Assembly (NCBI GenBank): GCA_964347045.1
Contig: CAYFXC010000030.1
Coordinates: forward strand, 930 to 15,986
Length of the DNA: 15,057 nt
Source: an uncultured archaeon
GTDB lineage: Archaea > Asgardarchaeota > Hermodarchaeia > Hermodarchaeales > Hermodarchaeaceae
Reading direction: 5' to 3'
Shown here: in pieces, positions 993 through 14,826 of the stretch
Layout: every line of letters begins with the position of its first letter
Position numbering within the stretch: the stretch's first letter is position 1
Program-made: the position numbers and the translations under genes
Notes under the pieces: generated by a model
Databases searched by the model: none
The model's input: the letters and a program-made list of their open reading frames with translations, nothing else
Told to the model about the DNA's origin: nothing

Positions 993-1658
993 TTAGCGGC
1001 GCATCCAGGTCACCGTACCTAGTTCGGTAACATAAATGCAGGGGAGATCAAATTCGATGGCCAGCTGAAACAAGGCCAGGGCGCTGACCTTACTGCCCCC
1101 CGTGACATCAATGAGAATTGCATACTCACGAATCAGATCTTGGGACAAGCGATATACCAGCTCATACATCTTCCCCAAATCGTAATTAAGGATATCAGCG
1201 GGCACTTCATGGAGCACCCGGTCAGAAGTGAGCCCACTTAAACGCCGTCGTGCCGCTTCACCCACAAAGTAGTGAAACTTTTCCGGCCGAAAGCTGGTCT
1301 CCGCCCGAATCCGCTTGGGCACCGCATGGAGCACCTCCGGATCATCGCCAATGGCCCCAATATAGGCAACCGGTGCGTTCACTCCAAGGACCCGTCGGAC
1401 ACTTTGAATTTCATGGGGAATAATCCGGGCGGCTTTTTCTTTTCCGTCCCGGAACCGTTCAATGATGCCATTATTTTCCAGGTGCTGGAGGTTAAAATAC
1501 AGCATCGCATCCGATACTTCATCCACGGGTTTGGCGACCCGCCGTGCAATCGCGGCCCGCAGCACTAATCCCGTTTGGGGCCCATCGAGGAGTTGACGGA
1601 GGATTATCTTGCGGGCTTCAACGCCACCAATGACCCGTTTAACTTTGCCAACAGACAC
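993..1658 (-). CDS. N-terminal winged-HTH (ArsR/PadR-like) + C-terminal CARF-like domain transcriptional regulator
   Basis: 'RKIILRQLLDGP...SDAMLYFNLQHLENNGIIER' is a wHTH. 'ILIDVTGGSKVSALALF...CIYV' matches the CARF D-x-T-G-G-x-K motif. GTG start, divergent from actin. Confidence 0.7.
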   Translation of the reverse strand: MSVGKVKRVIGGVEARKIILRQLLDGPQTGLVLRAAIARRVAKPVDEVSDAMLYFNLQHLENNGIIERFRDGKEKAARIIPHEIQSVRRVLGVNAPVAYIGAIGDDPEVLHAVPKRIRAETSFRPEKFHYFVGEAARRRLSGLTSDRVLHEVPADILNYDLGKMYELVYRLSQDLIREYAILIDVTGGSKVSALALFQLAIEFDLPCIYVTELGTVTWMRR

Positions 1659-1973: not shown

Positions 1974-3119
1974 ATGGCAACTGAAGAAGAAATGGTCACC
2001 GCCAAACCCTTGGTGGTTGACAACGGCACCGGCCTTAGCAAAAACGGCTACGCCGGTGAAGACCAGCCACGCAGCGTGTTCCCCACGCTCATCGGCTACC
2101 CCAAGTATCCTGCCTACATGACCGACGTCGAACACTACACCCGCGAATACTACATCGGCGAAGAAGCCCTCCAACTCCGCGGCGTCCTCAAACTCGTCTA
2201 CCCCATCGCCCACGGCCAAATCACCGACTGGCCCGCTATGGAAAAGATCTGGCACTACACCTTCTACAACGACCTCCGCATCGACCCCACCGAACACCCC
2301 ATCCTCCTCACCGAGGCCCCACTGAACCCCCGCGCCAACCGCGAAAAGATGGCCGAAATCATGTTCGAAACCTTCAACATCCCCGCCATCTACGTCGCCA
2401 TGCAAGCCGTCCTCAGCCTCTACGCCTCCGGCCGCACCACCGGCCTCGTCATCGACTCCGGCGACGGCGTCACCCACATCGTCCCCATCTACGAAGGCTT
2501 CGCCCTCACCCACGCCATCAGCCGCGTCGACTTAGCCGGCCGCGACATCACCGAATACCTCCGACGCCTCCTCCGCCAACGCGGATACAGCCTCACCACC
2601 ACTGCTGAACGCGAAATCGTCCGCGACATCAAAGAAAAACTCTGCTATGTCGCACTCGAACCCGAAAAAGAAACCAAACTCGCCGAAAAAGTCGCCGGCA
2701 TGGAAAAGAAATACATGCTCCCCGACGGCAGCACCCTCACCGTCGGTGCTGAACGATTCCAGGGACCCGAAGTGCTCTTCAATCCGGGCGCCATCGGCGT
2801 CGAAGCCCAACCCCTCGACGACGCCATCGTCGAAGCCGTCCGCAAATGTGACGTCGACCTCCGACGTGATCTCTACGCCAATATTGTTCTTTCTGGTGGA
2901 ACCACCATGTTCCCCGGCCTCAAAGAACGCCTCCGAAAGGAGATCATCGAACAGATCCCCGAAAACGTCGAAGTCAAAATCGTCGCCCCACCCGAACGGA
3001 TGTACTCCGTCTGGATCGGCGGCTCCATCCTCGCCTCTCTAAAGACGTTTCAGCGCATGTGGGTCACGAAAAAGGAATACATGGAACAAGGCGCTGGTGT
3101 TATTCATCGGTGCTTCTAA
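1974..3119 (+). CDS. Actin (Asgard lokiactin-type, eukaryote-like)
   Basis: Canonical actin motifs throughout: [129 protein letters not shown]-terminal IHRCF. Strong C-ending codon bias. Confidence 0.98.
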
Positions 3120-3170
3120 ACTAGCCGATTTTTGGGAGGCCTGTCCTCCCCTTTTTCATTTTTTTATTTT
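3060..3170 (+). repeat. Repeat R1: native actin 3' end ([19 protein letters not shown]) + terminator; master copy of the array repeat
   Basis: TGGGTCACGAAAAAGGAATACATGGAACAAGGCGCTGGTGTTATTCATCGGTGCTTCTAA, then GGGAGG-CCTGT-CCTCCC and a T-tract. Confidence 0.95.
3134..3170 (+). terminator. Hairpin + poly-T terminator of actin
   Basis: GGGAGG(3134-3139)/CCTCCC(3145-3150) stem followed by TTTTTCATTTTTTTATTTT. Confidence 0.8.
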
Positions 3171-3184
3171 TGGTTAAGTGGTGA

Positions 3185-4318
3185 TTAGATTTCTTGGAAT
3201 TGAAAAGCTCGTTGCCGAAGGATTTTGTGCTTTTTGTGTATTGGGAGTGCTGGATCGATTGGATGGTCTTTTCTGTCAACGAGTATAGCCTTTAGCACAG
3301 CTTGCTTGTCGAGTCCTTCATAGTAACTTCCAACCTTCAATTTGACACCGTCAATAAACCCACCTAGATTGAGGAATTTTTTCGCTTGATGGAGTTGTGC
3401 GGTTTCTATCATCTCGGTTGTTGTGTTGAATGAAAAACCTCGGGTTTCGAGGTATTTTTTCCATTGTACTTTTAGTAATGGATGTTTGCAACCTAATGTA
3501 AGATGTGGATAAGGGAATCGACTATCCCGTGTGAATTTTGGATTGATTGATCCTTCTGTACTCATAGCTAGCCGAATTACGAAGTTGTGAATTGTGGTTG
3601 GAATGGTTGGGTCTGATAGAAATTGCATTGATGGTTGGGGGTTTTCTTGAAGGTAATCGTCCCATGATTGTCCGAGTTTGGGTCGTGTTCGGTAGATAGG
3701 GCTGAGTTTGAGGAGTTCTTCGAGCATGAGTTTGGTGTCGTGTTTTCGGTTGTAGGTGGTGTAGTAGGCTTTGTGGCCTTGTTTGCCGGCTTTGCTCCAG
3801 TAAGGTTTGAAGAAGGTGGATGGGGGTTGGTTGTAGTGGTAATGGTTAAGGTCGGCGAAGATGGCATGGAGGGATTCAGCCTTGTTAGTGAAGGTAATGT
3901 AATGGCCACGGCCTGTGCGTTTGCCTGCACCGCCGTCGGTGATGAGCATGATGGCGATGAGGTGAGGAAGAAAGGGTTTGACGTTGGGGTGTTGGAGGAG
4001 TTGGGGGACTTCGGTGGAGAGAGGGAAGGTGGGGGCTTTAGATCCGCGGCGAAGGAGTTGGGCGTCGCGGAGGGGGCGGAGCGGTTTGTTGTATCGACGG
4101 ATGATGTTTTGGATGGTGTCTTGGGTACAGTCTTTTTCTTGGGCAAGTTGGAGGCTGCTTTTTTCTTCGCAAGTGTAGTCACAGACAATCTTGAGTTCCG
4201 TGGCGATGTCAAATTTGCGTTGGTAGGTGGCTTTAATGCCTGGTTGGGTCGTTTGGCGAAGGTGGTAAATGGGGCAGGTTGGGCATTTCTTAGGAAAGTA
4301 GGGTGGGTCGGTAGTCAT
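3185..4318 (-). CDS. Free-standing double-motif LAGLIDADG-like endonuclease with N-terminal CxxC and HTH
   Basis: Motif 1 'LIAIMLITDGG' followed by 'YITFTNKAESLHAIFADL'. Motif 2 'VIRLAMSTEGSI' followed by 'LTLGCKHPLLKVQWKKYLETRGF'. Both show the LAGLIDADG helix ending in D/E-G, then beta-strand and helix. N-terminal 'CPTC' and HTH-like 'SSLQLAQEKDCTQDTIQNIIRRY'. Recognised by eye, not by HMM. Confidence 0.65.
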   Translation of the reverse strand: MTTDPPYFPKKCPTCPIYHLRQTTQPGIKATYQRKFDIATELKIVCDYTCEEKSSLQLAQEKDCTQDTIQNIIRRYNKPLRPLRDAQLLRRGSKAPTFPLSTEVPQLLQHPNVKPFLPHLIAIMLITDGGAGKRTGRGHYITFTNKAESLHAIFADLNHYHYNQPPSTFFKPYWSKAGKQGHKAYYTTYNRKHDTKLMLEELLKLSPIYRTRPKLGQSWDDYLQENPQPSMQFLSDPTIPTTIHNFVIRLAMSTEGSINPKFTRDSRFPYPHLTLGCKHPLLKVQWKKYLETRGFSFNTTTEMIETAQLHQAKKFLNLGGFIDGVKLKVGSYYEGLDKQAVLKAILVDRKDHPIDPALPIHKKHKILRQRAFQFQEI

Positions 4319-4758
4319 GGTTCGTCACTCTGGCAGTGGTGAGGAACGGTGACGCCGTTGAGATCGCCGGTGTTTGTGAAATGGAGGATGAGACGGCATT
4401 GAAGATGGGTGTGGGTGAAGTCGGTCCAGTCGGGTCGTGGGGTGGTGATAGTGGTGTCGTCATCGAGTTGGAAGGTGCATTCGGTGTCTGTGAGGGTGGT
4501 CAAGGTGGCGAAGATGGCCTGTTCGCCGGGGATTTCGTAGAAGATGTGATCATTGTTGTTGTCGAGGAGTTCTGCACCACAGCTTTTGAGGTCTTGAATG
4601 AAGATGATTCGGTCCTTGAGGGCTTGAATCATGTCATCCCACGTGTGGCAGTCGTCGGCGAGCCATTTGAAGCGCATGATGTGATGCGTTGCCGCATCGA
4701 GTTCATTCAATTCATCTTCAGTGAGGTAGGTTGAGAGTTTTTCATAATCGATTTTCAT
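4315..4758 (-). CDS. Hypothetical protein, translationally coupled to the endonuclease gene
   Basis: 147-aa ORF. Its TGA overlaps the next ATG (ATGA, 4315-4318). Same C/A-rich codon style as its neighbour. Confidence 0.7.
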   Translation of the reverse strand: MKIDYEKLSTYLTEDELNELDAATHHIMRFKWLADDCHTWDDMIQALKDRIIFIQDLKSCGAELLDNNNDHIFYEIPGEQAIFATLTTLTDTECTFQLDDDTTITTPRPDWTDFTHTHLQCRLILHFTNTGDLNGVTVPHHCQSDEP

Positions 4759-4853
4759 GATGGTTCACTTCTGGCGGGGCGCGGGTTTTGGTTGGTTTTT
4801 ATGCGTTATGGTTCTCAGGAAAAGGCGATTAAAACCACACAGCTGCGGACTCG

Positions 4854-4905
4854 TGGGTCACGAAAAAGGAATTCATGGAGCATGGCACTGGCGGGATGGT
4901 CAATG
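4854..4905 (+). repeat. Repeat R2: degenerate actin 3' end (WVTKKEFMEHGTGG...), no terminator
   Basis: TGGGTCACGAAAAAGGAATTCATGGAGCATGGCACTGG; the first 19 nt are identical to the native actin copy. Confidence 0.8.
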
Positions 4906-5562
4906 TTAAAGGACCGCTTGGGTCCCAGGCGGCAGGGGGGACAGGTCAAGGGATTCGAACCGGTTCCCTTTCAGATCTAGCTCTTGGAGGTGTTGGCAGT
5001 GTTGGAGGGGGGTGAGGTCGAGGCTTTGAAGTTGATTGGAAGATAGATCGAGTGTTTTTAGGTGTTGGCAGTGTTGGAGGGGGGTGAGGTCGAGGGTGTG
5101 GAGCTGGTTGACATTGAGCCACAGTTCGTGGAGGTGTTGGCAGTGTTGGAGGGGGGTGAGGTCGAGGGTGTGGAGCTGGTTGTAGGAGAGGATTTGTATT
5201 CGGAGCTGGGTGCAGGTGGTCAGGGGGGTTATGTCGACGGTTTGGAGCTGGTTGTAGGCCAGGTTGAGTATTCGGAGCTGGGTGCAGGTGGCGAGGGGCG
5301 TGAGGTCGAGATGTGGGAGTCGGTTAACGTTGAGCCACAGTTCGTGGAGGTGTTGGCAGTGTTGGAGGGGGGTGAGGTCGAGGGTGTGGAGGTTGTTGAA
5401 TGCGAGACTAAGGCTTTGGAGACGGGAGCAGTGTTGGAGGGGGGTGAGGTTGATGCTCGTGAATCCGATATTTTCAATCCTGATGACGTTAACCTTTGAG
5501 TCGTATTCAGGGGTTTGCCGTTCGTCGCCTGTCACGTCGATGTAGCGGAATTGAACACCCAT
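4906..5562 (-). CDS. Leucine-rich repeat protein (24-aa LRRs)
   Basis: About 7 repeats of LxxLDLTPLxxCxxLxxLxLxxNx. Likely start ATG 5562 (MGVQFRY) after GAGGGA. The ORF-track start (5643) lies inside repeat R3. Confidence 0.9.
   Translation of the reverse strand: MGVQFRYIDVTGDERQTPEYDSKVNVIRIENIGFTSINLTPLQHCSRLQSLSLAFNNLHTLDLTPLQHCQHLHELWLNVNRLPHLDLTPLATCTQLRILNLAYNQLQTVDITPLTTCTQLRIQILSYNQLHTLDLTPLQHCQHLHELWLNVNQLHTLDLTPLQHCQHLKTLDLSSNQLQSLDLTPLQHCQHLQELDLKGNRFESLDLSPLPPGTQAVL
4930..5460. repeat. 72-bp tandem coding repeats of the LRR gene
   Basis: GGTGTTGGCAGTGTTGGAGGGGGGTGAGGTCGAG recurs at 4989, 5061, 5133 and 5349 (72-nt phase). Confidence 0.9.
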
Positions 5563-5633
5563 AGAGCATCCCTCATCGGAACCTATCACGTCTACAAGTT
5601 CAAATGTTTGCCGGTCGGGTGATCGGTCACCAG

Positions 5634-5739
5634 TGGGTGACAAAGAAAGAATACATGGAGCAGGGTGCTGGAGTTATCCACCGCTGCTTCGAGGTAGCTG
5701 AATTTTGGGAGGCCTGTCCTCCCCTTTCTCTCTTTTTTT
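5634..5739 (+). repeat. Repeat R3: actin 3' end ([19 protein letters not shown], stop replaced by GAG) + terminator
   Basis: 19/19 amino acids identical to the actin C-terminus; hairpin GGGAGG-CCTGT-CCTCCC at 5707-5723 plus T-tract. Confidence 0.95.
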
Positions 5740-5831
5740 GTGCGTGTTTTTTTGGGGTGAGGTGTTGGTGGGTGGGAATTGGAGGTGATTTTTAAATGGG
5801 GTTTGGGATTGAGTGGGTGTTGATGGGTTGA

Positions 5832-6617
5832 TTGGTGATGAAGGGTGGGGGTAAACGTCGTTGGGTGCGGATTGTTGCTCTGGTGTTGGTGGTTTTAATT
5901 GTACTGGGGGTTGGGGGATATGGGCTCTTGTGGGCGGGATTGAGTAGGTGGCCTGGGTCCTATACGTATACGGAGAGTCGGATCTTTGATTCGGTGAAAG
6001 AAGGGGCCGCGTTGAGGGAAGCGGAGCTATTCGATTACTCAGTGTTTTTGGTCGGAGACAATGAGACCTTAGCACCATATAGCTACTATCGGGGTATGGT
6101 GGAATATTCGGTGTTGCCGCTCAGCGAATTGCCGTTTCTTGCTAATGCGACACTTGCCCAGTATCGGCTGATAAACCACACGTTCAATCCCTTTCTCATA
6201 TTAGGGAAACGAACAATCACCTATATTGCAAATAGCACTTATTTTCCATCGCTGAATGTGACACTCAACGCAACGGCATTGGGTTCGAACCAGATGAGTC
6301 CTTTGGTGTTTGCCAACCCGAATGGGACCATTGCGGAAACATGGACTAGTGGCGCGTGGCGTGGAGGCTACTGGAACGGAACTGATTATGTGAGTTTTGA
6401 GTATGTGCGAAATAGAGGCTTTGTCGGACCGCAGTTCCTGTTACAAAATCACACTGATGTCTATTTTATCGATATGTTGTTCACAATCCTTCGTGATGGC
6501 GCAGGATCGCGTTCATTCTTTGGTGATATGTTTCGGTATATTCAACGTGTGATTGTGGATGCAACGGGACGAGTTCTCTTTGTATCATCAGCTCAAGATT
6601 ATCTAGCTTGGATTTGA
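5832..6617 (+). CDS. N-terminally anchored membrane/secreted glycoprotein, unknown function
   Basis: KRR + hydrophobic helix (WVRIVALVLVVLIVLGVGGYGLLW); 9 N-x-S/T sequons in the remainder. Exact start uncertain (5832-5838). Confidence 0.75.
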   Translation: MVMKGGGKRRWVRIVALVLVVLIVLGVGGYGLLWAGLSRWPGSYTYTESRIFDSVKEGAALREAELFDYSVFLVGDNETLAPYSYYRGMVEYSVLPLSELPFLANATLAQYRLINHTFNPFLILGKRTITYIANSTYFPSLNVTLNATALGSNQMSPLVFANPNGTIAETWTSGAWRGGYWNGTDYVSFEYVRNRGFVGPQFLLQNHTDVYFIDMLFTILRDGAGSRSFFGDMFRYIQRVIVDATGRVLFVSSAQDYLAWI

Positions 6618-6687
6618 ATCGTGGGCACGCAATTGCTGTTGGATGTAAACGAAAAATAATGCCGTTTTCGAAGCTAAGATTAGGCAA

Positions 6688-6795
6688 ATGTGTGTGACGA
6701 AGAAAGAATACATGGAGCAGGGCGCTGGAGTTATCCACCGCTGCTTCGAGGTAGCTGATTTTTTGGGAGGCTTGGTTTCCTCTATCTCGTTTTTC
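6688..6795 (+). repeat. Repeat R4: actin 3' end ([20 protein letters not shown], stop replaced by GAG) + eroded hairpin
   Basis: ATGTGTGTGACGAAGAAAGAATACATGGAGCAGGGCGCTGGAGTTATCCACCGCTGCTTCGAGGTAGCTGA...GGGAGG at 6765. Confidence 0.93.
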
Positions 6796-6882
6796 TAAGT
6801 TGTGAGAAGTTTGTGTGGCTGGATTGAAATGGAATGGCTTTTGAGGTTAGGCGGGGTAATGGTTGGAAAATTTGACTAGGAG

Positions 6883-7680
6883 TTGGTGGTTGATTTGGAA
6901 GGTGAAGGTTTGAAGGAATTGCCTGAGGTGGGGCATTATGTGGATGTGAACGGGCTCCATATGTATTATGAGGATCAGGGTCAGGGGGTTCCGTTGATTT
7001 TAGTGCATGGTGGGTTGCTGACGGGGAGTCTTGGGTGGGGGGATCTCAGGAAGCGATTTGCCCAGCAGTTTCGTGTGATTGTTCCCGATTGTCGGGGCTG
7101 TGGTCGAACGGATAATCCCCAGGGCAGTATGGATTATCGGGTCATGGCCGATGATATCGTTGCATTAGCCCAGTCCTTGGAGTTGGTGAATCCGATTATC
7201 GGTGGATGGAGTGATGGCGGACAAGTTACATTGGAAATTGGAATCCGGTATCCGGATGTTGCGAAAGCCCTCGTGGTGGGGGCCGCACAGCACGAATTGT
7301 CACCAAAGACAAAGGAGGGCCTGTTGTCAGTTCGTGATTGGCTTAAATCCGAACCAGAACTTACAGCGTCGTTGAGAGCTGCGCATAGCCATGTCTACGG
7401 AGCCGAGTACTGGGAAACATATGTCAACAAGCAGATTCAGATGTGGACTAACCCATCGAACTATCCACAGGACGATATTAAGCGAATCAAGGTGCCCACG
7501 CTCCTCATCGTGGGGGATCAAGATGAAGCAGTCCCCCTCGAAACCCAAATCGAAATGCTTGAGCTGATGCCACAGGCAGAATTAGCCATCATCCCCAATA
7601 TGACGCACATGAATTATGTGAACGAACGCAGTGCAATCTTCTTTGCCGTTGTGATGGACTTCCTTAAACGGATCTCCTGA
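6883..7680 (+). CDS. Alpha/beta-fold hydrolase
   Basis: Oxyanion HGG, 'PDCRGCGRT', nucleophile elbow GWSDGG, 'PTLLIVGDQDEAVP' and catalytic His in 'PNMTH'. Start uncertain by a few codons. Confidence 0.92.
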   Translation: MVVDLEGEGLKELPEVGHYVDVNGLHMYYEDQGQGVPLILVHGGLLTGSLGWGDLRKRFAQQFRVIVPDCRGCGRTDNPQGSMDYRVMADDIVALAQSLELVNPIIGGWSDGGQVTLEIGIRYPDVAKALVVGAAQHELSPKTKEGLLSVRDWLKSEPELTASLRAAHSHVYGAEYWETYVNKQIQMWTNPSNYPQDDIKRIKVPTLLIVGDQDEAVPLETQIEMLELMPQAELAIIPNMTHMNYVNERSAIFFAVVMDFLKRIS

Positions 7681-7691
7681 GAAAAAAGATC

Positions 7692-7726
7692 TTTGGGAGG
7701 CCTGGTCTCCCTTTTCTCTCTTTTTT
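7692..7726 (+). terminator. Repeat R5: hairpin/poly-T half of the actin repeat only
   Basis: TTTGGGAGGCCTGGTCTCCCTTTTCTCTCTTTTTT, near-identical to the R1/R3 terminators. Confidence 0.8.
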
Positions 7727-7792
7727 ATGGGTGGGGTGGGTGGAAGGTGGGTTTTTAGGGTGTGAGGTGGGTTGGTGAGGGGTGAGGGATGA

Positions 7793-8791
7793 TTGTTGGT
7801 TTTGGATTTGGTTGATAAATGGTTGTTAATTGAGTTAGGGGCGAACTGTCGGCTGTCGTATCAGAAGTTGGCGCGTCATTTTGGGTTGACGGTCAATGGG
7901 ATTAAGAAACGGGTGGAAAAGTTGCGGGAGATGGGGGTGATTTTAGGGTCTCTTTTGGTCTTGAATCGGGGGATCGTGTTTGGTTCTCCCCGACATTATT
8001 GGTTCATGTCGCAGTTGTGGGTCGATGAATCGAGAGACGATGAACAGCATTTCATTGAACAGGCAAAGTTTCCTGAATTGGGTTTAAGTTATTTGAAAAC
8101 AACTCGGAACACCATTCTTCTCTCCGGGCGTGTATACGATCTTGCCCGGTATCTTGAACTAGTGAAATTCATTCAACATCTTGAAGGGGTGCATAAATCA
8201 GAAACTGAAGTGTTGAGAGGCTTGTTTGTTCCAGGGCTACTCCGCAATGCACGACAAATCCCGCAGCTCACAATCAAAAGGACCTGTGTTGAGCACGATT
8301 TCACAAAAGATCAACTGTTGTTACTCCACTATCTTAAGGATGACCCACGAATGCAAGTAACAGAACTTGCGGCTAAGACGAAATTTTCGCCAAAGCGGGT
8401 GCGTAAAATCTTAAATATCTTCCACCAAACTCGGTGTGTAGTGTTTACTATCGTGCGGAATTTGAGTGCAGCGAAGCACACCGGTGCATTGGTAAGGATC
8501 ACAATAGATGAAACTCAAACTACCCCGGAGGATTTTGCTCGCTGGATAGTTGAAGCCTATCCGTTTGAATTTCGAATGATTTTTGCGGTGGTCGATAAAC
8601 CCAATCAACTGTGGCTTTCGATTTCTGCCCCACATATTCAAACCATTGATGCGATAGCCGAAACTATCCGTTCTACTCCTTTCACCCAACACACAGACGC
8701 CCTTGTCCTTTTTGGAGCAGTCTTTGGTGACAAAACCAGTCCTTACTATGATCGCCCTCTCGAAACGCTCCTCAAAGAAGCTGGTCTGTAA
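7793..8791 (+). CDS. Tandem (double HTH) Lrp/AsnC-family transcriptional regulator
   Basis: 'LDLVDKWLLIELGANCRLSYQKLARHFGLTVNGIKKRVEKL' and a second HTH 'LLLLHYLKDDPRMQVTELAAKTKFSPKRVRKIL'. Confidence 0.88.
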   Translation: MLVLDLVDKWLLIELGANCRLSYQKLARHFGLTVNGIKKRVEKLREMGVILGSLLVLNRGIVFGSPRHYWFMSQLWVDESRDDEQHFIEQAKFPELGLSYLKTTRNTILLSGRVYDLARYLELVKFIQHLEGVHKSETEVLRGLFVPGLLRNARQIPQLTIKRTCVEHDFTKDQLLLLHYLKDDPRMQVTELAAKTKFSPKRVRKILNIFHQTRCVVFTIVRNLSAAKHTGALVRITIDETQTTPEDFARWIVEAYPFEFRMIFAVVDKPNQLWLSISAPHIQTIDAIAETIRSTPFTQHTDALVLFGAVFGDKTSPYYDRPLETLLKEAGL

Positions 8792-8811
8792 TTAGCACTT
8801 GAATAATGCCC

Positions 8812-8905
8812 GAAAAGAAGGTATACATGGAGCAGGGTGCTGGCGTGATCCTTCGCTGTGTCTAAAATCCTTGGATTTCTGGGAGGTTCCTGCTCCCATT
8901 CTTTT
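8812..8905 (+). repeat. Repeat R6: actin 3' end ([17 protein letters not shown]) + hairpin
   Basis: TACATGGAGCAGGGTGCTGGCGTGATCCTTCGCTGTGTCTAA (TAA 8863-8865); GGGAG/CTCCC stem at 8881-8897. Confidence 0.9.
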
Positions 8906-8944
8906 GTTGGTGCTGAGTGTGGCTTGATTGAGGAAAGTTGGGTG

Positions 8945-9652
8945 TTAGAATTCGGTGATGGGTTTGAGGTATTGGGCCATGCCGAGGGTGAATTGGGCTT
9001 CTGCGGGTGACACTGCTCGTCCGTCAAAGTGTGTGCGTTCGACAAATTCGGCGAAGTGGGTTACCAGGTCTTCAGGGTCGTCGTAGGCGGCGATTTTGTC
9101 GAGGGTGTCTAGGCCGGCGTCGTAGAAGAGGCGGGCGCGTTTTTGTTTCAGTCCTGGGATGCGGGCTAGATTGCTGAGTTTTACTAGTTCTAGGATGGTT
9201 TCTTCTGGTAGGTTGGTTTCTTCGGAGAGTTTCTCTCGTTGGGCTTTGGTTGTGGTGCTGGCGAGGAGTTGGGCGGCGGTTCGAATATCATGGGCCGAGA
9301 GGGTTTTTGCGACTTGGGGATTGACGCCGGTGAAATCTTTGAGGTTCAGTGCCTCTAGCGAGATGATTCCTAAAATTTCGTTAGCGGCGTGATAGAGATC
9401 TTGGTCTGCTGTGAATCCGTAATAGGATTTTAGCGCGTAGAAGTAGCGGTTGATCCTTGGGCGTCGAAATTGCGGGTCCAGCCAGGTGAAAAATGCGTGG
9501 AGGTCCTCGGGTTGTTGGGTGTCAACACTGTGTTGACGATACTTTTGAAGATAGTCAAAATATTCTTTGGATAGTCGAATAAATTGAGTCATCGTATTGG
9601 CGGGGGTTTTTTGGTCCTGTAAATAAGTTCGAAACCCTTTTTCATCAAACAT
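8945..9652 (-). CDS. DUF4332-like (HhH) protein with N-terminal integrase SAM-like/core-binding-like helical domain
   Basis: C-terminal 'LKDFTGVNP..AKTL....IRTAAQLL.....REKLSEETNLPEETILELVKLSNLARIPGL..KRARLFYDAGLDTL' is typical of DUF4332. N-terminal 'FRTYL...NT...F..YL...EDL.AF...L....INRY..ALKSYY.F' resembles the tyrosine-recombinase N-terminal domain. Likely start ATG 9652 after GGAGTGA; the track start 9766 is inside R7. Confidence 0.75.
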   Translation of the reverse strand: MFDEKGFRTYLQDQKTPANTMTQFIRLSKEYFDYLQKYRQHSVDTQQPEDLHAFFTWLDPQFRRPRINRYFYALKSYYGFTADQDLYHAANEILGIISLEALNLKDFTGVNPQVAKTLSAHDIRTAAQLLASTTTKAQREKLSEETNLPEETILELVKLSNLARIPGLKQKRARLFYDAGLDTLDKIAAYDDPEDLVTHFAEFVERTHFDGRAVSPAEAQFTLGMAQYLKPITEF

Positions 9653-9743
9653 CGTGTTCACTCCACTTAGGAAACAAGCTGATATTCGTTTCTTATGTTT
9701 CTTGAGTATAAATTGTCGCGTTTTTGAACTTTCACTATCAAAT

Positions 9744-9850
9744 TGGGGTATGAAAAAACAATACATGGCGCAGGGTGCTGGCGTGATCTACCGCTGCTTC
9801 TAAACGGGTCTTCACATTTTGGGAGGCTTGCCTCCCTTTTTTTCTTTTTT
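9744..9850 (+). repeat. Repeat R7: actin 3' end (WGMKKQYMAQGAGVIYRCF*) + terminator
   Basis: TGG 9744 to TAA 9801-9803, same 57-nt spacing as actin; GGGAGGC-TT-GCCTCCC at 9821-9836 plus T-tract. Confidence 0.93.
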
Positions 9851-9942
9851 GGTGGTTTCTGGTTGAGTTGATCTAAGGTGTGGATTCCGAGGAGTATTTA
9901 CGTGATGGTGAGCATATAGGAGGGTGGTTGGGTGGTTTGGGA

Positions 9943-10992
9943 ATGCCAGTGGATCTTACAGACAAACGGATTATCATGTTGCTAATGGAGAATCCACGCA
10001 CATCCTATCGGGCCTTGGGACGAGCACTGGGATTATCGGTGACGGCCGTACGCAACCGGGTGTTGAAACTTGAAGCCAGCAACGTCATTCGCCAATATGT
10101 GCTCTATCCAAGCTATGCCATGCTGGGGGCGTCGTTATGTACAGCCATTCTGAGCATCGCCAACCCGCCTCCCAGTGACGAGTTCCGAGAGCGCCTTGGA
10201 GCTCATCCGATGATTGAATGGGTAGATTTCCTTGCTGATGGGAATGTGATGTGTTATGCCACCTATATTGGTTCCAAGGGATTAGACGAACTCACCTTAT
10301 TCTTGCACGAGCTGGAAGCGGTCAATGACATTGAATTTCATACCCTGCTGGTTGAAGAAGGCAAGAAATTAACTCTTACTTCGATGCATCTTCAGGTCTT
10401 GCGGTGCCTTCGAAAGGATGTTCGCATGCCCGTCAGCGAAATTGCCCAACTCACTCGACTCACTCAACGGCGCGTTCGAAAACTCTTAGCCGATCTGATA
10501 GGCACCACGGGATCTTTTAGCGGAGAATGGTTTCATGAAAAAGGATGCGGAGATTATCGCAGCGCCCAACAATGTTTTCATCCCCGTGTCAATTGTGATG
10601 TGGCCGAAGGTGGTTCGACACGGTTTCTCGCCCGGATTTCATTTCGTGGCGGCGCTGAACAGCGACGAAAGATTGTGGAGGTCTTAAAACGTGAATATCC
10701 TCTCGAATACTGGTTTAGTCGCGCGAGTGCTTCCGCTCCCGTTCTGTTTTCCATGTTCTTTGTAGATGTCGCTAATTACTCGCCACAAATCATCCAGCGC
10801 ATCAAAGAGCTGGATGGCGTTGAGTCCGTGCGGCCCATTGTCAATTATGCTCACCACTACTACCCGGGCTTAATTGACCGGTTCTGGGAGCAATTATTCA
10901 GCCAATCTAACCCTCATGCCAAAACACAGTGTGGTTGGATTCAGTTCGAATGTGCACACCGTTTCGAAGACACAGGGAGGTTCCGAAGTTGA
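9943..10992 (+). CDS. Tandem Lrp/AsnC-family transcriptional regulator
   Basis: 'VDLTDKRIIMLLMENPRTSYRALGRALGLSVTAVRNRVLKL' and a second HTH 'LQVLRCLRKDVRMPVSEIAQLTRLTQRRVRKLL'. Start taken at ATG 9943 by alignment with the paralogues (track start 9880). Confidence 0.88.
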   Translation: MPVDLTDKRIIMLLMENPRTSYRALGRALGLSVTAVRNRVLKLEASNVIRQYVLYPSYAMLGASLCTAILSIANPPPSDEFRERLGAHPMIEWVDFLADGNVMCYATYIGSKGLDELTLFLHELEAVNDIEFHTLLVEEGKKLTLTSMHLQVLRCLRKDVRMPVSEIAQLTRLTQRRVRKLLADLIGTTGSFSGEWFHEKGCGDYRSAQQCFHPRVNCDVAEGGSTRFLARISFRGGAEQRRKIVEVLKREYPLEYWFSRASASAPVLFSMFFVDVANYSPQIIQRIKELDGVESVRPIVNYAHHYYPGLIDRFWEQLFSQSNPHAKTQCGWIQFECAHRFEDTGRFRS

Positions 10993-11135
10993 CATTCTGT
11001 AACCTCGTCTTATAAAGCAAGGTACTTTTGTAAATCTGTGACTTCACGTGGGCTAATATGTTACCGTCTGCCCTCTTGCAGCTGGTGGGGGTTGTCTTCA
11101 CAATTGGAGGGATACCCCCTTGGAGGAACTCGAAA

Positions 11136-11957
11136 ATGGTTTCTATGAAAACGAAATGGACAATTTCATTGTCCACAATTGTAGCCCTGAGCCTGCTATT
11201 TTTAGGCCTGTGTTGGGGGTTCCCCTCAGCTGGGGCAATGCAAACGCCTGTCTGGTCGGATAACTTCAATGACGGCAACCTCGATGGATGGACCGTCTTT
11301 GAAGGGTCCTTCTCGGCAACTACTCTTCGAATGGAATCTGGTACAGATCTCTGGAATTTCGCATCCCATCCAAGTACGGTGACGACAGGTGAATGGCGAT
11401 TTACAGTCTGCGTTGATGCAATTGCGGGTCCCGCTGTGGCTTTTATGGCCACAACTACCTCTGGAGTCGGTCTTGCCTGTCCAAGTACTTGCTACCTCAT
11501 TTTCCTTAGTCCTCATGGTGGCTGGATTCGTTTGTATAAACTTGAATCTGGAAGCCAGAGTATCTTGGGGGGATATGATATCGATATTGTCTTGGGTACT
11601 GTCTTTGAGGTCATTGTGACACGGGATTCCAATGGACAGTTTAATGTGTGGATCGATGGCACCCATCGGATTTCAGCTGTATCAACCAACATCGAAAGTT
11701 CATCTTATTTTGTCGTTAGGTTCCATGAAGGAGGATACATCGACAACATCCGGGTCTATGACGAAATACTAACCACTACGGGTACTGAAACAGAAACTAC
11801 CACGGACACCACAACCACAGAAGACGGAACATTCACGGGATGGCAGCTTCCGCCACTGCCCGTTGAAGCGATTGGCATAGGCATTGGTGTCGTAGCCATC
11901 ATCATCCTCATCGTTGGGTTGGTTCTGCTTCTCCGACCCAAGAAAATAGAATCGTAA
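11136..11957 (+). CDS. Cell-surface protein: signal peptide, beta-sandwich (ConA/LamG-like) domain, Thr-rich linker, C-terminal TM anchor
   Basis: Signal peptide KTKW+hydrophobic; 'VWSDNFNDGNLDGW...GEWRF...VIVTRDSNGQFNVWIDG...IDNIRVYD'; TTTGTETETTTDTTTTE; TM followed by RPKK. GGAGG at 11122 precedes ATG 11136; TTATAAAG at 11010. Confidence 0.8.
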   Translation: MVSMKTKWTISLSTIVALSLLFLGLCWGFPSAGAMQTPVWSDNFNDGNLDGWTVFEGSFSATTLRMESGTDLWNFASHPSTVTTGEWRFTVCVDAIAGPAVAFMATTTSGVGLACPSTCYLIFLSPHGGWIRLYKLESGSQSILGGYDIDIVLGTVFEVIVTRDSNGQFNVWIDGTHRISAVSTNIESSSYFVVRFHEGGYIDNIRVYDEILTTTGTETETTTDTTTTEDGTFTGWQLPPLPVEAIGIGIGVVAIIILIVGLVLLLRPKKIES

Positions 11958-11985
11958 GGCTATCAGACAGCATGGAGTCTTATCT

Positions 11986-12053
11986 GGGGAGGCCTGGTCT
12001 CTTATCCATCCGTTGTCAGGGGAAGCTTGGCCTCCCCTTCGCCCCATTTTTTT
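11986..12053 (+). repeat. Repeat remnant R8: two eroded copies of the terminator hairpin
   Basis: GGGGAGGCCTGGTCTC (11986-12001, matches R5) and GGGGAAGCTTGGCCTCCCC (12019-12037) followed by TTTTTT. Confidence 0.6.
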
Positions 12054-12102
12054 GGCTAGCAGAAAATGTGAATGTAGACAAATGAGGGAAGGACTTGAAG
12101 AA

Positions 12103-12531
12103 ATGAAGTATTCAGACTTTGTACAAGCATACAAGGACATTCGAACCAAAGTACAGGCTTCATCTGTTGAGGCTGAGGACGAAGGGTTAGTCCTGATCCA
12201 TGAAACAGAGTGGGCTCAAGTACTTCTGGTTCATACCCCACAGAAGGCCGATACTATCAAGCTTATCGTCGAAGTGTCCTTGCCAAGTTGGGTTCATGAG
12301 TTGAGTTTGCCGGGAACTGCCAGCGAACAGTCCTCAGAGTATACACCACAATTGCAGAAGGTGTTAAAGGAGCAAGTGCGTCATCTCGAATACCTCCTCA
12401 CGTTAAGTCATGCAGGATTTCAACTAGCGATAATCGCGGAAGAAGGGTTCTGGAGTGCGTCGACACTCTTACAAGACGCTCCATCTAGGGATCTATTCCT
12501 TCTCCTCGCTCCTCCGGAAGTCACCCTCTAG
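12103..12531 (+). CDS. Hypothetical protein
   Basis: Open frame with protein-like composition. ATG 12103 or 12082 preferred over the track start 12013, which lies in the repeat remnant. Confidence 0.7.
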   Translation: MKYSDFVQAYKDIRTKVQASSVEAEDEGLVLIHETEWAQVLLVHTPQKADTIKLIVEVSLPSWVHELSLPGTASEQSSEYTPQLQKVLKEQVRHLEYLLTLSHAGFQLAIIAEEGFWSASTLLQDAPSRDLFLLLAPPEVTL

Positions 12532-12564
12532 CTTTCATTCTTTTTAGTTGAGCAAAACTAGGTA

Positions 12565-12672
12565 TGGGTGACAAAGAAAGAATACATGGAGCAGGGTGCT
12601 GGCGTGATCCATCGCTGCTTCTAAGCGGCCTTCACCTATTGGGAGGCGTGCCTCCCTTTTTTTCATTTTTTT
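12565..12672 (+). repeat. Repeat R9: intact actin 3' end ([19 protein letters not shown]) + terminator
   Basis: 19/19 aa identical with TAA at 12622-12624; GGGAGGC-GT-GCCTCCC at 12641-12656 plus T-tract. Confidence 0.96.
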
Positions 12673-12731: not shown

Positions 12732-13727
12732 TTGGTAGGGGTGGAGGGTGTTGTTGTGACAGTGGATGATGTTGATCGACGGTTGGGTTTGGAGTTGATG
12801 GGGAATGCACGGTTGTCGTATACGGTGTTGGCGCGGGATTTGGGGTTGTCGGTGAATGCGGTGAAGAAGCGGGTGGCAAAGCTCATGGAGCGTGGGATTT
12901 TGGAGGAGTTTGGGGTGTACGTTAATCCGGAGTTGTGTTATGAGGGAGTGCAAATCAATGAGGTGTTTGGGTGGGTAGCGACGGACGGGGCCGAAGAGGA
13001 GGAAACGTTCATTCATCAGGTTGGTGGGTTTCCGTCAATTCATTCTGTCTCAAAGACTACCCGCGATACCTACATGTTTAATGCAATGGTTCCGGGCTTT
13101 GAGGGGATTTCTAGCATGGGTCGATTTCTTGAAAAACTTCCGGGTGTGACTCACCTTGAAATGGATCCAGTGTTGTATTTGGGGTGGCCCCCTGGGGTGG
13201 TGGGTCGGAAGTTTTCCACTCCACGTAGAGTATACGATTATACTTTTTCGAAGCCTGATTTGTTGGTTTTGCGATGTTTGAAGGAGGATCCGAGGATGTC
13301 GATTTCAAGGATTGCTAAACAGACGGGATTAACACCACGGCGTGTTCGGAAAATTCTTGACATGTTTCATGAAACCAGGGTCGTGGTGGTGTACGCGGAT
13401 ATTAATGTCGAGGCGGCTGGGTTTATGAGGGCTGTCCTGCGTGTGAAAATAGATTTGGCTGTTCAAAGTCCTAAGGCGTTCCGGAATTGGGCATATCAGC
13501 TACATCCGTTTGGATGGCTGGGCACCTATTCGTGTGTTAACCGTCCTTCAACGCTTCTTCACTATATAGGAGCAGAAAATATAATCAGTATTGAAGAATT
13601 GGCGAAAACGGTTAAGGCTTCTCCCGCTGTACAGGCTGTTGAAACCATTATACTCTACCGTGAACACATATTTCATGGGAAATGGCACCAACGCGTTGAT
13701 GAACTGCTCAGAGACGCTGGGCTTTAA
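12732..13727 (+). CDS. Tandem Lrp/AsnC-family transcriptional regulator (closest paralogue of 7793-8791)
   Basis: 'VDDVDRRLGLELMGNARLSYTVLARDLGLSVNAVKKRVAKL' and a second HTH 'LLVLRCLKEDPRMSISRIAKQTGLTPRRVRKIL'; ends LLRDAGL* versus LLKEAGL*. True start probably a GTG some codons downstream. Confidence 0.88.
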   Translation: MVGVEGVVVTVDDVDRRLGLELMGNARLSYTVLARDLGLSVNAVKKRVAKLMERGILEEFGVYVNPELCYEGVQINEVFGWVATDGAEEEETFIHQVGGFPSIHSVSKTTRDTYMFNAMVPGFEGISSMGRFLEKLPGVTHLEMDPVLYLGWPPGVVGRKFSTPRRVYDYTFSKPDLLVLRCLKEDPRMSISRIAKQTGLTPRRVRKILDMFHETRVVVVYADINVEAAGFMRAVLRVKIDLAVQSPKAFRNWAYQLHPFGWLGTYSCVNRPSTLLHYIGAENIISIEELAKTVKASPAVQAVETIILYREHIFHGKWHQRVDELLRDAGL

Positions 13728-13752: not shown

Positions 13753-13832
13753 CAGGGTACGAGCGTTATTCACCGGTGCTTCTAAAATGGCTGTTTCCCT
13801 TTGGGAGGCTTGCCTCCCTTCTCTCTTTTTTT
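13753..13832 (+). repeat. Repeat R10: 5'-truncated actin 3' end (QGTSVIHRCF*) + terminator
   Basis: CAGGGTACGAGCGTTATTCACCGGTGCTTCTAA (TAA 13783-13785); GGGAGGC-TT-GCCTCCC at 13803-13818 plus T-tract. Confidence 0.9.
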
Positions 13833-13960: not shown

Positions 13961-14572
13961 ATGGCTTCAACTAAGTTGTTAGGCAAAACTATAGTGGTTT
14001 CGTTGGCATTGGTTTGTGTGCTTACGATTGCGATGATGCCGGTGGCTTCAGCCAGTTATGGTGATACACGGCGATTTCTTCGCCCGAGCCCCTTTGGTGT
14101 GGGACAAGCGAAACTCTTTGACGTATACATGGACGCGGCTTGGAATCCACCTGGTCGCATTGTTAGCTTGTTTACTGTTGGTATACCTTGGGGACAAAAT
14201 TGGCTAAACGTGTTGGATTCAAATGAGGCTCTTATGATTGCGCCTGTTGGAATCTTCGTTGAACCACCGGATTATACTGACACAAAATCCGCAAGAGAGT
14301 TTTACAGTAATTTCAGGTATGTCGTCACGATTGATGGGGAAGAACTTCCCACCGAAATAACGCCCCTGCGCCCATGCACTTTCGTGGATCGTGAAACCGG
14401 CGAAAAATATCGCTGGTGGGAATGGCGCTGTGGTGCCACCTTTAAAGCCGGTGAATTCGAAGAATACCTTGGTGGACTTGGAATATACACGATTCGCTTC
14501 CGATGGTTCCTAGGCGAGGAGTGTCTTTTCGATAGTGATTGGTTTGGCGTCTATCAGTTCCAACTAGTATGA
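13961..14572 (+). CDS. Secreted hypothetical protein
   Basis: Signal peptide (K..K + hydrophobic + ASA). TATA-like TTTATAAG at 13889 and GGAGGGA at 13944 upstream. Confidence 0.8.
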   Translation: MASTKLLGKTIVVSLALVCVLTIAMMPVASASYGDTRRFLRPSPFGVGQAKLFDVYMDAAWNPPGRIVSLFTVGIPWGQNWLNVLDSNEALMIAPVGIFVEPPDYTDTKSAREFYSNFRYVVTIDGEELPTEITPLRPCTFVDRETGEKYRWWEWRCGATFKAGEFEEYLGGLGIYTIRFRWFLGEECLFDSDWFGVYQFQLV

Positions 14573-14575
14573 AAT

Positions 14576-14632
14576 CTGTGAAATTCATCGAACCAAATGG
14601 GAGGCTTGTCCTCCCCTTTCTCTCTTTTTTTT
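14576..14632 (+). repeat. Repeat R11: terminator plus trace of actin codons
   Basis: GTGAAATTCATCG (compare actin GTGTTATTCATCG); GGGAGG-CTTGT-CCTCCC at 14599-14615, then CTTTCTCTCTTTTTTTT as in R3. Confidence 0.8.
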
Positions 14633-14826
14633 GGCTTCTCTAATATTTTGTAATCTCTCTATTTGAAGCTGTACCCGAAATCGTATTGAAGTCGTGGATG
14701 TATAAGATATGGGAATGCATGGTTGTAACTTGGTTGCGGGTGCTTCTTGTGCTGAAAAATCATCTGCTCGATAAATTTCCCCTTTCTAAACAGATACACA
14801 AGTTCCCCAAGCAAGATGCAGTTGGT

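What the first reader, a model, noticed from the sequence alone, without database searches (positions are those of the whole stretch)
3060..12624. Orphan actin C-terminus copies differ from the gene only at synonymous sites
Seen by codon-by-codon comparison: R3 (5634) and R9 (12565) each differ from native actin at 11 of 19 codons, all silent (e.g. GTC>GTG, ACG>ACA, AAA>AAG, AAG>AAA, GAA>GAG, CAA>CAG, GGC>GGT, ATT>ATC, CGG>CGC). Neutral decay would not do this. Inference: each copy once served as the translated C-terminus of an actin gene, here or in a donor. An incoming module would supply a new recoded 3' end and push the old one downstream. Homology starts near the W codon in R2, R3, R4, R7 and R9, which points to a fixed crossover or cleavage point near 3057-3062.
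Basis: partly seen in the sequence, partly recalled or inferred. Interest (0 to 1): 0.88.

Follow-up and report, generated by a model that had tools for sequence, protein, structure and literature searches.

The report
Cast-off actin gene tails behind actin
Behind the actin gene of this Asgard archaeon lies a row of accessory genes separated by old copies of actin's last 19 codons; these copies once ended a working actin gene and were pushed aside when a selfish DNA-cutting-enzyme module brought a replacement tail, which shows that a core cytoskeleton gene serves as a docking site for mobile DNA.

Summary
Observation confirmed. The copies at 5634 and 12565 each differ from the live actin tail (3060-3116) at 11 of 19 codons. 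All the differences are silent third-position changes (chance about 1e-8).

Interpretation partly supported.
- The orphan copies are relics of former coding sequence. In the genus, displaced tails vary about 3 times more at third codon positions, and 19 of 55 carry stops.
- 5634, 6691 and 12565 lie only 4-6 nt from live actin tails of relatives but 10-11 nt from their own. Their halves match live tails of relatives exactly.
- Slot 1 (3185-4318, minus strand) encodes a LAGLIDADG homing endonuclease: pLDDT 92, every Foldseek top hit is of that family, and dN/dS is 0.11-0.28.
- Across 8 lineages the live tail plus terminator co-varies with that gene (Mantel r=0.68, p=0.001). It does not co-vary with the actin body.

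Two corrections.
- 5634 and 6691 share a destroyed stop codon, so not every orphan was itself a live tail. Units are also copied within arrays.
- Only the left edge of the repeat (M361/W362) is fixed. Recombination joints are spread over the ~110-nt tail-hairpin unit.

The closest known system is the fungal mitochondrial mobile ORFs (mORFs) that carry a C-terminus. The stacking into a ~29-kb cassette array on an archaeal chromosome is new. This scan has already noted the same system in related genomes.

The parts
1974..3119 (+). Actin gene (Asgard lokiactin type), 381 aa
   Evidence: Pfam Actin, E 1.8e-134. It is 98-100% identical in protein to actins of genus relatives.
3060..3170 (+). Live tail unit. 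It comprises the last 19 codons plus stop (3060-3119), a 14-nt spacer, the hairpin GGGAGG-N5-CCTCCC (3134-3150) and a T-run.
   Evidence: The unit profile matches it end to end.
3185..4318 (-). Free-standing LAGLIDADG homing endonuclease gene with an N-terminal Cys-rich/HTH region, 377 aa
   Evidence: AlphaFold2 with an 81-sequence alignment gives pLDDT 92.4. All 50 top Foldseek PDB hits are LAGLIDADG enzymes. D128 is nearly invariant across the 81-sequence family; D128 and E255 are invariant among the 12 close homologues. Remote relatives hit Pfam LAGLIDADG_3. dN/dS is 0.11-0.28.
4315..4758 (-). 147-aa ORF of unknown function, overlapping the start of the nuclease gene by 4 nt (start of the same operon)
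   Evidence: It is conserved with the nuclease in G005, G008 and G013. It has no family or atlas match.
4824..4891 (+). Right end of the nuclease module. It comprises a conserved 17-nt motif (4825-4841) followed by a 5' half tail (4854-4891) that breaks off after nt 38.
   Evidence: The same motif precedes the second tail in G005, G008, G011, G012 and G013. G012 has the same break after nt 38 with a shared G>A change. Joints in other metagenomes start at 4841.
4906..5643 (-). Cargo: leucine-rich-repeat protein
   Evidence: Pfam LRR_4/LRR_8, E 1e-20. It is absent between the nuclease module and a 5634-type tail in a contig of run X8 (joint 4841>5629).
5634..5745 (+). Orphan unit R3. The tail has 11 silent differences and its stop is mutated to GAG. 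Hairpin at 5707-5723.
5832..6617 (+). Cargo ORF, 261 aa, unknown
6691..6806 (+). Orphan unit R4. It has 9 silent differences plus W>C, the same GAG in place of the stop as R3, and a decayed hairpin.
6883..7680 (+). Cargo: alpha/beta hydrolase
   Evidence: Pfam Abhydrolase_6, E 8e-21. Its homologue in G008 is followed by a full tail.
7683..7726 (+). Hairpin-only unit (the tail is deleted)
   Evidence: profile positions 77-120. The comparison with G008 shows the tail deletion.
7793..8791 (+). Cargo: double winged-helix AsnC-type protein. Paralogues lie at 9880-10992, 12732-13727 and 14686-15057.
   Evidence: Pfam HTH_AsnC-type and HTH_24. The family has 13 matching loci on 10 contigs of this genome.
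8806..8921 (+). Orphan unit R5, decayed (6 non-synonymous changes)
8945..9766 (-). Cargo: DUF4332/helix-hairpin-helix protein with a SAM-like N-terminal domain. It has no catalytic recombinase domain.
9744..9859 (+). Orphan unit R7 (5 non-synonymous changes), hairpin at 9821-9836
11058..12057 (+). Cargo ORF of 299 aa plus two hairpin-like remnants (11982-12057). The block is missing in a colinear contig of run X8.
   Evidence: Joint 11087>12076, side 255.
12013..12531 (+). Cargo ORF of 172 aa. A paralogous cassette with its tail lies on contig C13.
12565..12680 (+). Orphan unit R9. The tail has 11 silent differences and its stop is kept. Hairpin at 12641-12656.
13753..13832 (+). Orphan unit R10: 3' half of a tail plus hairpin at 13803-13818
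13961..14572 (+). Cargo ORF, 203 aa, unknown
14587..14630 (+). Hairpin-only unit (14599-14615)

Best explanation
The orphan copies are former 3' ends of a working actin gene, from this lineage or from donors. They now sit untranslated and decaying in a cassette array. A mobile module sits directly behind actin. It consists of a replacement tail with its terminator hairpin, a LAGLIDADG homing-endonuclease gene and a 147-aa ORF. It was inserted at a fixed site, the M361/W362 codon boundary (about 3057-3060). The module completes actin with its own silent-variant tail and leaves the previous tail downstream. This is the same logic as mobile endonuclease ORFs with a carried C-terminus in fungal mitochondria. 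Repeated rounds, by at least two endonuclease lineages in the genus, piled up tail-hairpin units. The ~110-nt units then act as portable homology. Recombination anywhere within them duplicates, deletes and swaps cassettes between strains and produces chimeric live tails. Shown here: the coding legacy of the orphans; their match to live tails of relatives; the nuclease fold and its purifying selection; linkage of the live tail to the nuclease rather than to the actin body; nuclease stumps behind displaced tails in relatives; and variable cassette order in other genomes and metagenomes. Inferred: that the nuclease cuts nuclease-free actin alleles at the boundary and so drives insertion, and how cargo genes enter cassettes.
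For: -: the changes are all silent, 11 of 19 codons.
- in 34 well-aligned displaced tails of the genus, mismatch by codon position is 0.13/0.11/0.32. Only 3 of 55 are intact and 19 carry stops.
- the orphans are 4-6 nt from live tails of G005, G012 and two JGI contigs, and their halves are identical to the live tails of G008 and G005.
- the slot-1 gene is a LAGLIDADG enzyme with catalytic D/E kept and dN/dS of 0.11-0.28.
- this gene occupies slot 1 in G000, G004, G005 (carrying a stop), G008, G012, G013 and two JGI contigs, and G011 has a distant paralogue there. C-terminal nuclease stumps lie at a constant offset (+115 to +133) behind four displaced tails in G004, G005 and G008.
- Mantel r=0.68, p=0.0012 for live tail plus hairpin against the nuclease gene. 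The actin body against the nuclease gives r=-0.03.
- actin itself is mosaic. G000 and G013 differ at 15 of 173 codons in the 5' half and at 72 of 190 in the 3' half.
- 83 units in 14 contigs are all co-oriented with actin. The sister genus G016 has a single unit.
- the same cassettes occur in other orders, and the joints are spread over the unit.
Against: - In this genome no nuclease stump follows any displaced tail. Most cassettes hold unrelated cargo, and nothing shown here explains how it got there.
- 5634 and 6691 share a destroyed stop, so some units spread by copying and not by displacement.
- Some homology blocks keep a cargo gene together with the tail after it rather than the tail before it.
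- G013's live tail carries the common 3' half although it has the nuclease, so tail variants do not obviously map to immunity.
- The nuclease's target and activity are untested.
- The Mantel test rests on 8 related lineages.
Confidence: 0.62

Rival explanations
1. The array is a recombination-only variable island. One ancient duplication of the actin tail plus terminator created direct repeats. Homologous recombination, unequal crossing-over and Campbell-type insertion of looped-out circles between these repeats built and reshuffle the array. The endonuclease gene is just another passenger.
For: - Joints and homology-block ends are spread across the whole unit.
- 5634 and 6691 share a derived stop loss.
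- A cassette with its tail is duplicated within the same array (C30 against C13).
- All units are co-oriented.
- No nuclease stumps are found in this genome.
Against: - The model does not explain why a conserved, selected nuclease holds slot 1 in most lineages.
- It does not explain why stumps of it follow displaced tails in relatives.
- It does not explain why the live tail co-varies with the nuclease but not with the adjoining actin body.
Confidence: 0.22
2. The array is an integron-like system. An unidentified site-specific recombinase recognises the tail-hairpin unit as an attC-like site and inserts circular cassettes at the actin end.
For: The array is polar and sits at a single locus. 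Its cassettes hold one or two genes, each bounded by a palindrome-containing repeat. The hairpin is almost confined to this island. Integrons are known in Archaea, including Asgard (PMC9668308, listed).
Against: No tyrosine recombinase lies in or beside the arrays of five genomes. Only a conserved XerA-type gene and one or two others lie elsewhere. There is no fixed crossover. The hairpin has 6-nt arms and resembles a terminator rather than an attC site.
Confidence: 0.08
3. The copies are conserved in place because they work now, as an RNA structure, a protein-binding site, a terminator module or a small peptide.
For: The hairpin plus T-run is well conserved and lies 14-26 nt after the stop of several plus-strand cargo genes (7683, 14587), which fits a reused terminator. 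The 3' half of the tail is the best conserved part.
Against: Third-position variation with an unchanged peptide cannot be explained by RNA or DNA function. RNAalifold finds only a weak fold (-8.6 kcal/mol) and no compensatory pair in the tail. Most copies carry stops or amino-acid changes. No ORF reads the orphans as part of a cargo gene.
Confidence: 0.04

Closest known systems
Mobile endonuclease ORFs (mORFs) with a carried C-terminus in fungal mitochondria. Examples are Allomyces macrogynus atp6 and Glomus atp6/atp9/cox2/nad3 (Beaudet et al. 2013, PMC3630166, read).
   Same: A LAGLIDADG (or GIY-YIG) ORF lies just behind a conserved gene. The element brings a foreign copy of the gene's C-terminus that becomes the live ending. 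The native C-terminus remains downstream as a duplicate. The carried and native ends differ strongly in DNA but little in protein.
   Different: Here the host is an archaeal chromosome and the target is actin. The nuclease is on the opposite strand and is not fused in frame. The carried piece includes the terminator hairpin. The process is stacked into about 29 kb with at least 14 tails in this genome, filled with unrelated cargo genes that are exchanged between strains. mORFs give a single duplication.
Intronless homing of free-standing homing endonucleases in T-even phages (Seg and Mob genes). This comparison rests on my own knowledge and on an earlier scan note, not on a paper read here.
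   Same: A free-standing nuclease gene lies between genes. It is thought to cut the neighbouring conserved gene in nuclease-free genomes. Its own genome is protected by sequence polymorphism, and flanking markers are co-converted. That last point fits the mosaic 3' half of actin.
   Different: The phage nucleases are GIY-YIG or HNH enzymes. They leave no duplicated gene end and no cassette stack.
Prophages and integrative elements that insert into the 3' end of a gene and carry a replacement end. Examples are elements targeting tRNA genes, and e14 and phage 21 in E. coli icd (from my own knowledge).
   Same: The element restores the target gene with its own silent-variant 3' end. The old end is left at the far junction. 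Tandem arrays can form.
   Different: Those elements use an integrase with a defined core crossover. No integrase is present here and the joints are not fixed.
Integrons, including the archaeal ones (PMC9668308)
   Same: A polar single-locus array of small, mostly unrelated gene cassettes lies beside a fixed platform. The cassettes are shared between strains in different orders.
   Different: There is no IntI, no attC architecture and no fixed crossover. The repeat is a piece of a host gene plus its terminator.

Membership tests
LAGLIDADG homing endonucleases (monomeric, two-motif) | Two alpha-beta-beta-alpha-beta-beta-alpha domains packed through two LAGLIDADG helices | tested here: met
   The AF2 model has pLDDT 92.4 and pTM 0.87. 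The Foldseek top 50 are all LAGLIDADG enzymes (I-WcaI, I-SceI, I-Tsp061I, I-OnuI and others), each with probability 1.00.
LAGLIDADG homing endonucleases (monomeric, two-motif) | One acidic catalytic residue at the end of each LAGLIDADG helix | tested here: met
   D128 (in the ...LITDGG motif) and E255 (in the ...MSTEGS motif) are invariant in the 12 close homologues. D128 and G256 are at least 90% conserved in 81 family members.
LAGLIDADG homing endonucleases (monomeric, two-motif) | Direct match to a curated LAGLIDADG sequence model | tested here: not met
   The window protein gets no Pfam, NCBIfam or PDB-sequence hit. Only remote relatives found with its profile pass the Pfam LAGLIDADG_3 cut-off. 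The fold evidence outweighs this.
LAGLIDADG homing endonucleases (monomeric, two-motif) | Site-specific cleavage of a long target in nuclease-free alleles | not testable with these tools
   This needs an enzyme assay.
mORF-type element with a carried C-terminus | The endonuclease ORF lies directly behind a conserved host gene | tested here: met
   The nuclease gene ends 65 nt after the actin stop, and the same arrangement is seen in 8 further lineages.
mORF-type element with a carried C-terminus | The live C-terminus belongs to the element and not to the host gene | tested here: met
   Similarity of the live tail plus hairpin tracks similarity of the nuclease (Mantel r=0.68, p=0.0012). It does not track the last 160 nt of the actin body (r=-0.27). 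The evidence is correlative and rests on 8 lineages.
mORF-type element with a carried C-terminus | The displaced native C-terminus is retained downstream, untranslated | tested here: met
   Seven displaced copies lie in the window, and 55 lie in 14 contigs of the genus. They show a coding legacy and later decay.
Integron | An integron integrase (tyrosine recombinase) lies next to the array | tested here: not met
   PF00589 was searched in 5 genomes. Hits occur only on other contigs: a conserved XerA-like gene and 1-2 others.
Integron | attC-type sites with one fixed crossover | tested here: not met
   Joints and block ends range from -30 to +135 relative to the unit start.
Integrase-driven insertion into a gene's 3' end (tRNA or icd type) | An element-encoded integrase and an identical core at both junctions | tested here: not met
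   No integrase is present. The units differ throughout.

The most novel reading that the evidence does not exclude
The actin 3' end of these Asgard archaea is the platform of a cassette-capture system powered by a homing endonuclease. The tail-terminator unit serves as a portable recombination site. Nuclease-induced breaks at it drive capture, stacking and strain-to-strain exchange of accessory genes. The result works like an integron but has no integrase, is anchored in a eukaryote-like cytoskeleton gene and may be read through from its strong promoter.
Probability: 0.3. Interest if true: 0.9.

Novelty: new variant of a known kind. Interest (0 to 1): 0.78.

Why it matters
Actin is one of the signature eukaryote-like genes of Asgard archaea and is almost invariant in protein across this genus. 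Here its last 19 codons are repeatedly replaced by mobile DNA, and the gene anchors a fast-changing accessory-gene island of about 29 kb. Three consequences follow.

- The principle of a mobile ORF with a carried C-terminus extends from fungal mitochondria to an archaeal chromosome.
- The displaced tails give a natural record of past invasions, which makes rates of gene flow in uncultured Asgard populations measurable.
- The findings may explain why the actin gene lies at a contig end in several MAGs of this genus, something to keep in mind for phylogenies built on Asgard actin.

If the nuclease proves to be the motor, this would be a way of building gene-cassette arrays without an integrase. 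I found no paper describing it in the library searched.

Tried and rejected
- Folding the 377-aa protein from a single sequence gave a useless model (pLDDT 35). Only the 81-sequence alignment worked.
- Direct family and PDB-sequence searches of that protein found nothing.
- PADLOC found only weak HTH matches (CasR/Csa3, E 6e-4 to 8e-3) in one AsnC-type protein and nothing in the other nine proteins tested, and the protein atlas found nothing for the 147-aa ORF.
- An exact-pattern scan of JGI metagenome contigs for actin fused to the first 38 nt of the 5634/12565-type tail found 0 matches. A fully degenerate pattern found three further live tails.
- No RNA holder was listed among public runs, so expression and read-through could not be examined.
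- Several joints have short sides (20-79 nt). They only show that a tail unit neighbours a different cassette. I did not use them to claim that cargo sits directly behind actin.
- The apparent longer actin fragment on C13 (aa 325-381) reduces to the tail plus about 25 nt of weak similarity, so I did not count it.
- I first took the break after nt 38 in the half tails of G000 and G012 for two independent cuts at one site. Both carry the same G>A change, so they are more simply one inherited end of the module.
- I looked for a gradient of decay with distance from actin and found none in this window.


Full report
WHAT IS THERE

The window is contig C30:930-15986 of an 89%-complete Asgard MAG. 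Close relatives are filed at NCBI as 'Promethearchaeota archaeon' or 'Candidatus Hodarchaeota archaeon'. ORF 1974-3119 is a eukaryote-like actin (Pfam Actin, E 1.8e-134).

Its last 19 codons plus stop (3060-3119) recur seven more times downstream, always on the plus strand. The copies start at 4854, 5634, 6691, 8806, 9744, 12565 and 13726. Most are followed by a spacer, a GGGAGG-N4-5-CCTCCC hairpin and a T-run, so the repeated unit is about 110 nt.

The hairpin is not a general terminator of this genome. Of 20 strand-wise matches genome-wide, 16 lie on C30 or on C13. The end of C13 carries the missing C-terminal part of the AsnC-type gene that is cut by the end of C30. The two contigs are therefore very probably adjacent, and the array runs for about 29 kb.

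THE OBSERVATION

Copies 5634 and 12565 each differ from the live tail at 11 of 19 codons. Every difference is silent and at a third position. Copy 6691 has 9 silent differences plus W>C. Only 19% of single substitutions here are silent, so the chance value is about 1e-8.

These three copies differ from one another by only 3-5 nt. They represent one diverged allele type seen three times.

ARE THEY FORMER CODING ENDS?

Across 14 contigs of 9 genomes of the genus I collected 55 displaced tails.
- In the 34 that align without gaps, mismatch to the majority is 0.13, 0.11 and 0.32 at codon positions 1, 2 and 3.
- Only 3 of the 55 are free of amino-acid changes, and two of those are in this window.
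- 19 of the 55 carry stops.

This is the pattern of sequence that evolved under protein constraint and then decayed. No ORF reads the orphans as part of a cargo gene. RNAalifold on 22 units finds only a weak fold in the tail and not one compensatory pair.

I then compared the orphans with the live tails of 11 lineages: 8 genomes plus three JGI contigs found with a fully degenerate pattern.
- The orphans are 4-6 nt from live tails of G005, G012, L065 and L067, but 10-11 nt from their own live tail.
- The first 24 nt of 5634 equal the live tail of G008.
- The last 33 nt of 6691 equal the live tail of G005.

So the variant codons do occur as working actin endings elsewhere, in mosaic form. No special recoding is needed to explain them. 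Live tails differ from each other by 4-12 silent changes. Actin 3' halves in the genus reach 11-14 differing codons per 19.

THE MODULE IN SLOT 1

ORF 3185-4318 (minus strand) has no direct family hit. Three lines of evidence identify it.
- Its profile finds 341 relatives, some of which pass Pfam LAGLIDADG_3.
- With an 81-sequence alignment it folds at pLDDT 92.4.
- The 50 best PDB matches are all two-motif LAGLIDADG homing endonucleases.

The acidic residues D128 and E255 are invariant in the 12 close homologues. dN/dS among seven orthologues is 0.11-0.28, so the enzyme is maintained by selection.

Its distribution in relatives is as follows.
- It occupies the first slot behind actin in G000, G004, G008, G012, G013 and two JGI contigs.
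- In G005 it carries a stop.
- G011 has a distant paralogue of the same fold family in that slot.
- C-terminal stumps of the gene lie at a constant offset behind four displaced tails in G004, G005 and G008. In those genomes an older block of tail, hairpin and nuclease has clearly been pushed downstream.
- The sister genus representative G016 has one unit and no nuclease.

DOES THE MODULE SUPPLY THE TAIL?

For the eight lineages with this nuclease, pairwise identity of the live tail plus spacer and hairpin correlates with identity of the nuclease gene (Mantel r=0.68, p=0.0012). The last 160 nt of the actin body correlate neither with the nuclease (r=-0.03) nor with the tail (r=-0.27). The tail therefore travels with the module, and recombination breakpoints concentrate at the body/tail boundary.

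Actin itself is mosaic. G000 and G013 differ at 15 of 173 codons in the 5' half and at 72 of 190 in the 3' half. The actin gene lies at a contig end in seven genus genomes listed (G001, G006, G008, G011, G012, G013 and C24 of G000) and in the 211-kb record. This fits co-existing strains that share the front of actin but differ from there on.

(i) Copies 5634 and 6691 share a stop codon changed to GAG. None of the 11 live tails has this change. At least one of the two was therefore copied from, or converted by, an already displaced tail. A whole cassette with its tail is also duplicated within the array (C30 12011-13599 against C13, 71% identity).

(ii) Only the left edge of the unit is fixed, at or 1-3 nt before the W codon. 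The ends of homology blocks shared between arrays fall just before the unit, inside it and just after it in similar numbers.

(iii) I laid contigs of three other metagenome studies on the window. The same cassettes appear with different neighbours.
- The right end of the nuclease module is joined directly to a 5634-type tail without the LRR cassette (joint 4841>5629, side 61).
- The 299-aa cassette is missing from an otherwise colinear contig (joint 11087>12076, side 255).
- The switch points are always colinear in unit coordinates but at varying positions.

These are contigs of relatives, not reads of this strain, and units are repeats. I therefore use only joints with long sides. Together these points indicate homologous-type recombination within the units as the process that reshuffles the array. 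They argue against a site-specific crossover.

No tyrosine recombinase lies in or next to the arrays of five genomes.

WHAT IT MOST LIKELY IS

The array is a stack of cast-off actin tails. It was founded, and at least sometimes extended, by a homing-endonuclease module that brings its own actin ending. It was then diversified by recombination between the tail-hairpin units.

How the unrelated cargo enters cassettes is not explained by anything I could test. The cargo comprises an LRR protein, a hydrolase, four AsnC-type double winged-helix proteins, a DUF4332 protein and several unknowns. In this genome no nuclease stump marks the older cassettes. For that reason I put the full mechanism at 0.62, although I put the 'former live tail' part at about 0.9.

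COMPARISON WITH WHAT IS KNOWN

The single unit has the architecture of fungal mitochondrial mORFs: gene body, carried C-terminus, LAGLIDADG ORF, native C-terminus. This is described for Allomyces atp6 and four Glomus genes (PMC3630166). It also resembles intronless homing of phage free-standing nucleases, and integrase-driven insertion into gene 3' ends. The features that define the latter two comparisons, and those that define integrons, are not met here (see the membership test).

New here are the host (an archaeal chromosome), the target (actin), the inclusion of the terminator in the carried piece, and the stacking into a strain-variable cassette array. Four literature searches found no description of it.

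Earlier agents of this scan reached a similar reading on related genomes. I re-derived the main points on this window. I add four points:
- the tail-nuclease linkage test;
- the shared stop loss of 5634 and 6691;
- the spread of recombination joints over the unit;
- the evidence from other metagenome populations.

Noticed in passing
L055:15759-15979 (minus strand), which is G011:C32:39758-39978; the equivalent window positions are about 2995 and 3058/3059: In relative G011 the actin 3' region carries two short inserts of 28 and 30 nt that break the frame. The first folds into a canonical bulge-helix-bulge motif: 3-nt bulges on opposite strands separated by a 4-bp helix. The second folds into a relaxed version. 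Cutting after the second bulge nucleotide restores exactly ...APPERMYS... and ...FQRMWVT.... They therefore look like tRNA-type introns in the actin mRNA. The second sits inside the M361 codon, exactly at the left edge of the tail repeat, and contains a decayed duplicate of the preceding 20 nt. A contig of run X8 appears to carry the same allele (joint 2992>5632). Among 19 family genomes only G011 has it.
   Followed up: partly
G000 contig C24:3-398 (minus strand) compared with window 1974-2369: The MAG holds a second copy of the first 132 actin codons at a contig end. It is 100% identical in protein, has 13 silent codon differences, and its upstream region is only 76-84% identical. This is probably a second strain in the bin rather than a second gene.
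   Followed up: partly
window 993-1658 (minus strand): A 221-aa protein lies head to head with actin. It has weak PadR-type winged-helix and Csa3/CARF-like matches. An earlier scan note on a relative reads it as a CARF-type regulator of actin. I did not test this.
   Followed up: no
window 7793-8791, 9880-10992, 12732-13727, 14686-15057: Four paralogous double winged-helix AsnC-type genes lie in 15 kb of the array and at least two more on C13. One search lists 13 matching loci on 10 contigs genome-wide, so the family is strongly enriched among the cassettes. The reason is unknown.
   Followed up: partly
window 4906-5643 (minus strand) next to 3185-4318: A leucine-rich-repeat gene sits beside the homing-endonuclease module. 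Wu et al. 2022 (PMC8813620) describe a Heimdallarchaeum mobile element, HeimM2, that also combines an internalin-like LRR protein with a homing-endonuclease homologue next to the 16S rRNA gene. This may be coincidence.
   Followed up: no
window 8945-9766 (minus strand): This cargo protein has an integrase-type SAM-like N-terminal domain and a DUF4332 helix-hairpin-helix domain, but no catalytic recombinase domain. It is conserved in the array of G012 (74% nt identity).
   Followed up: no
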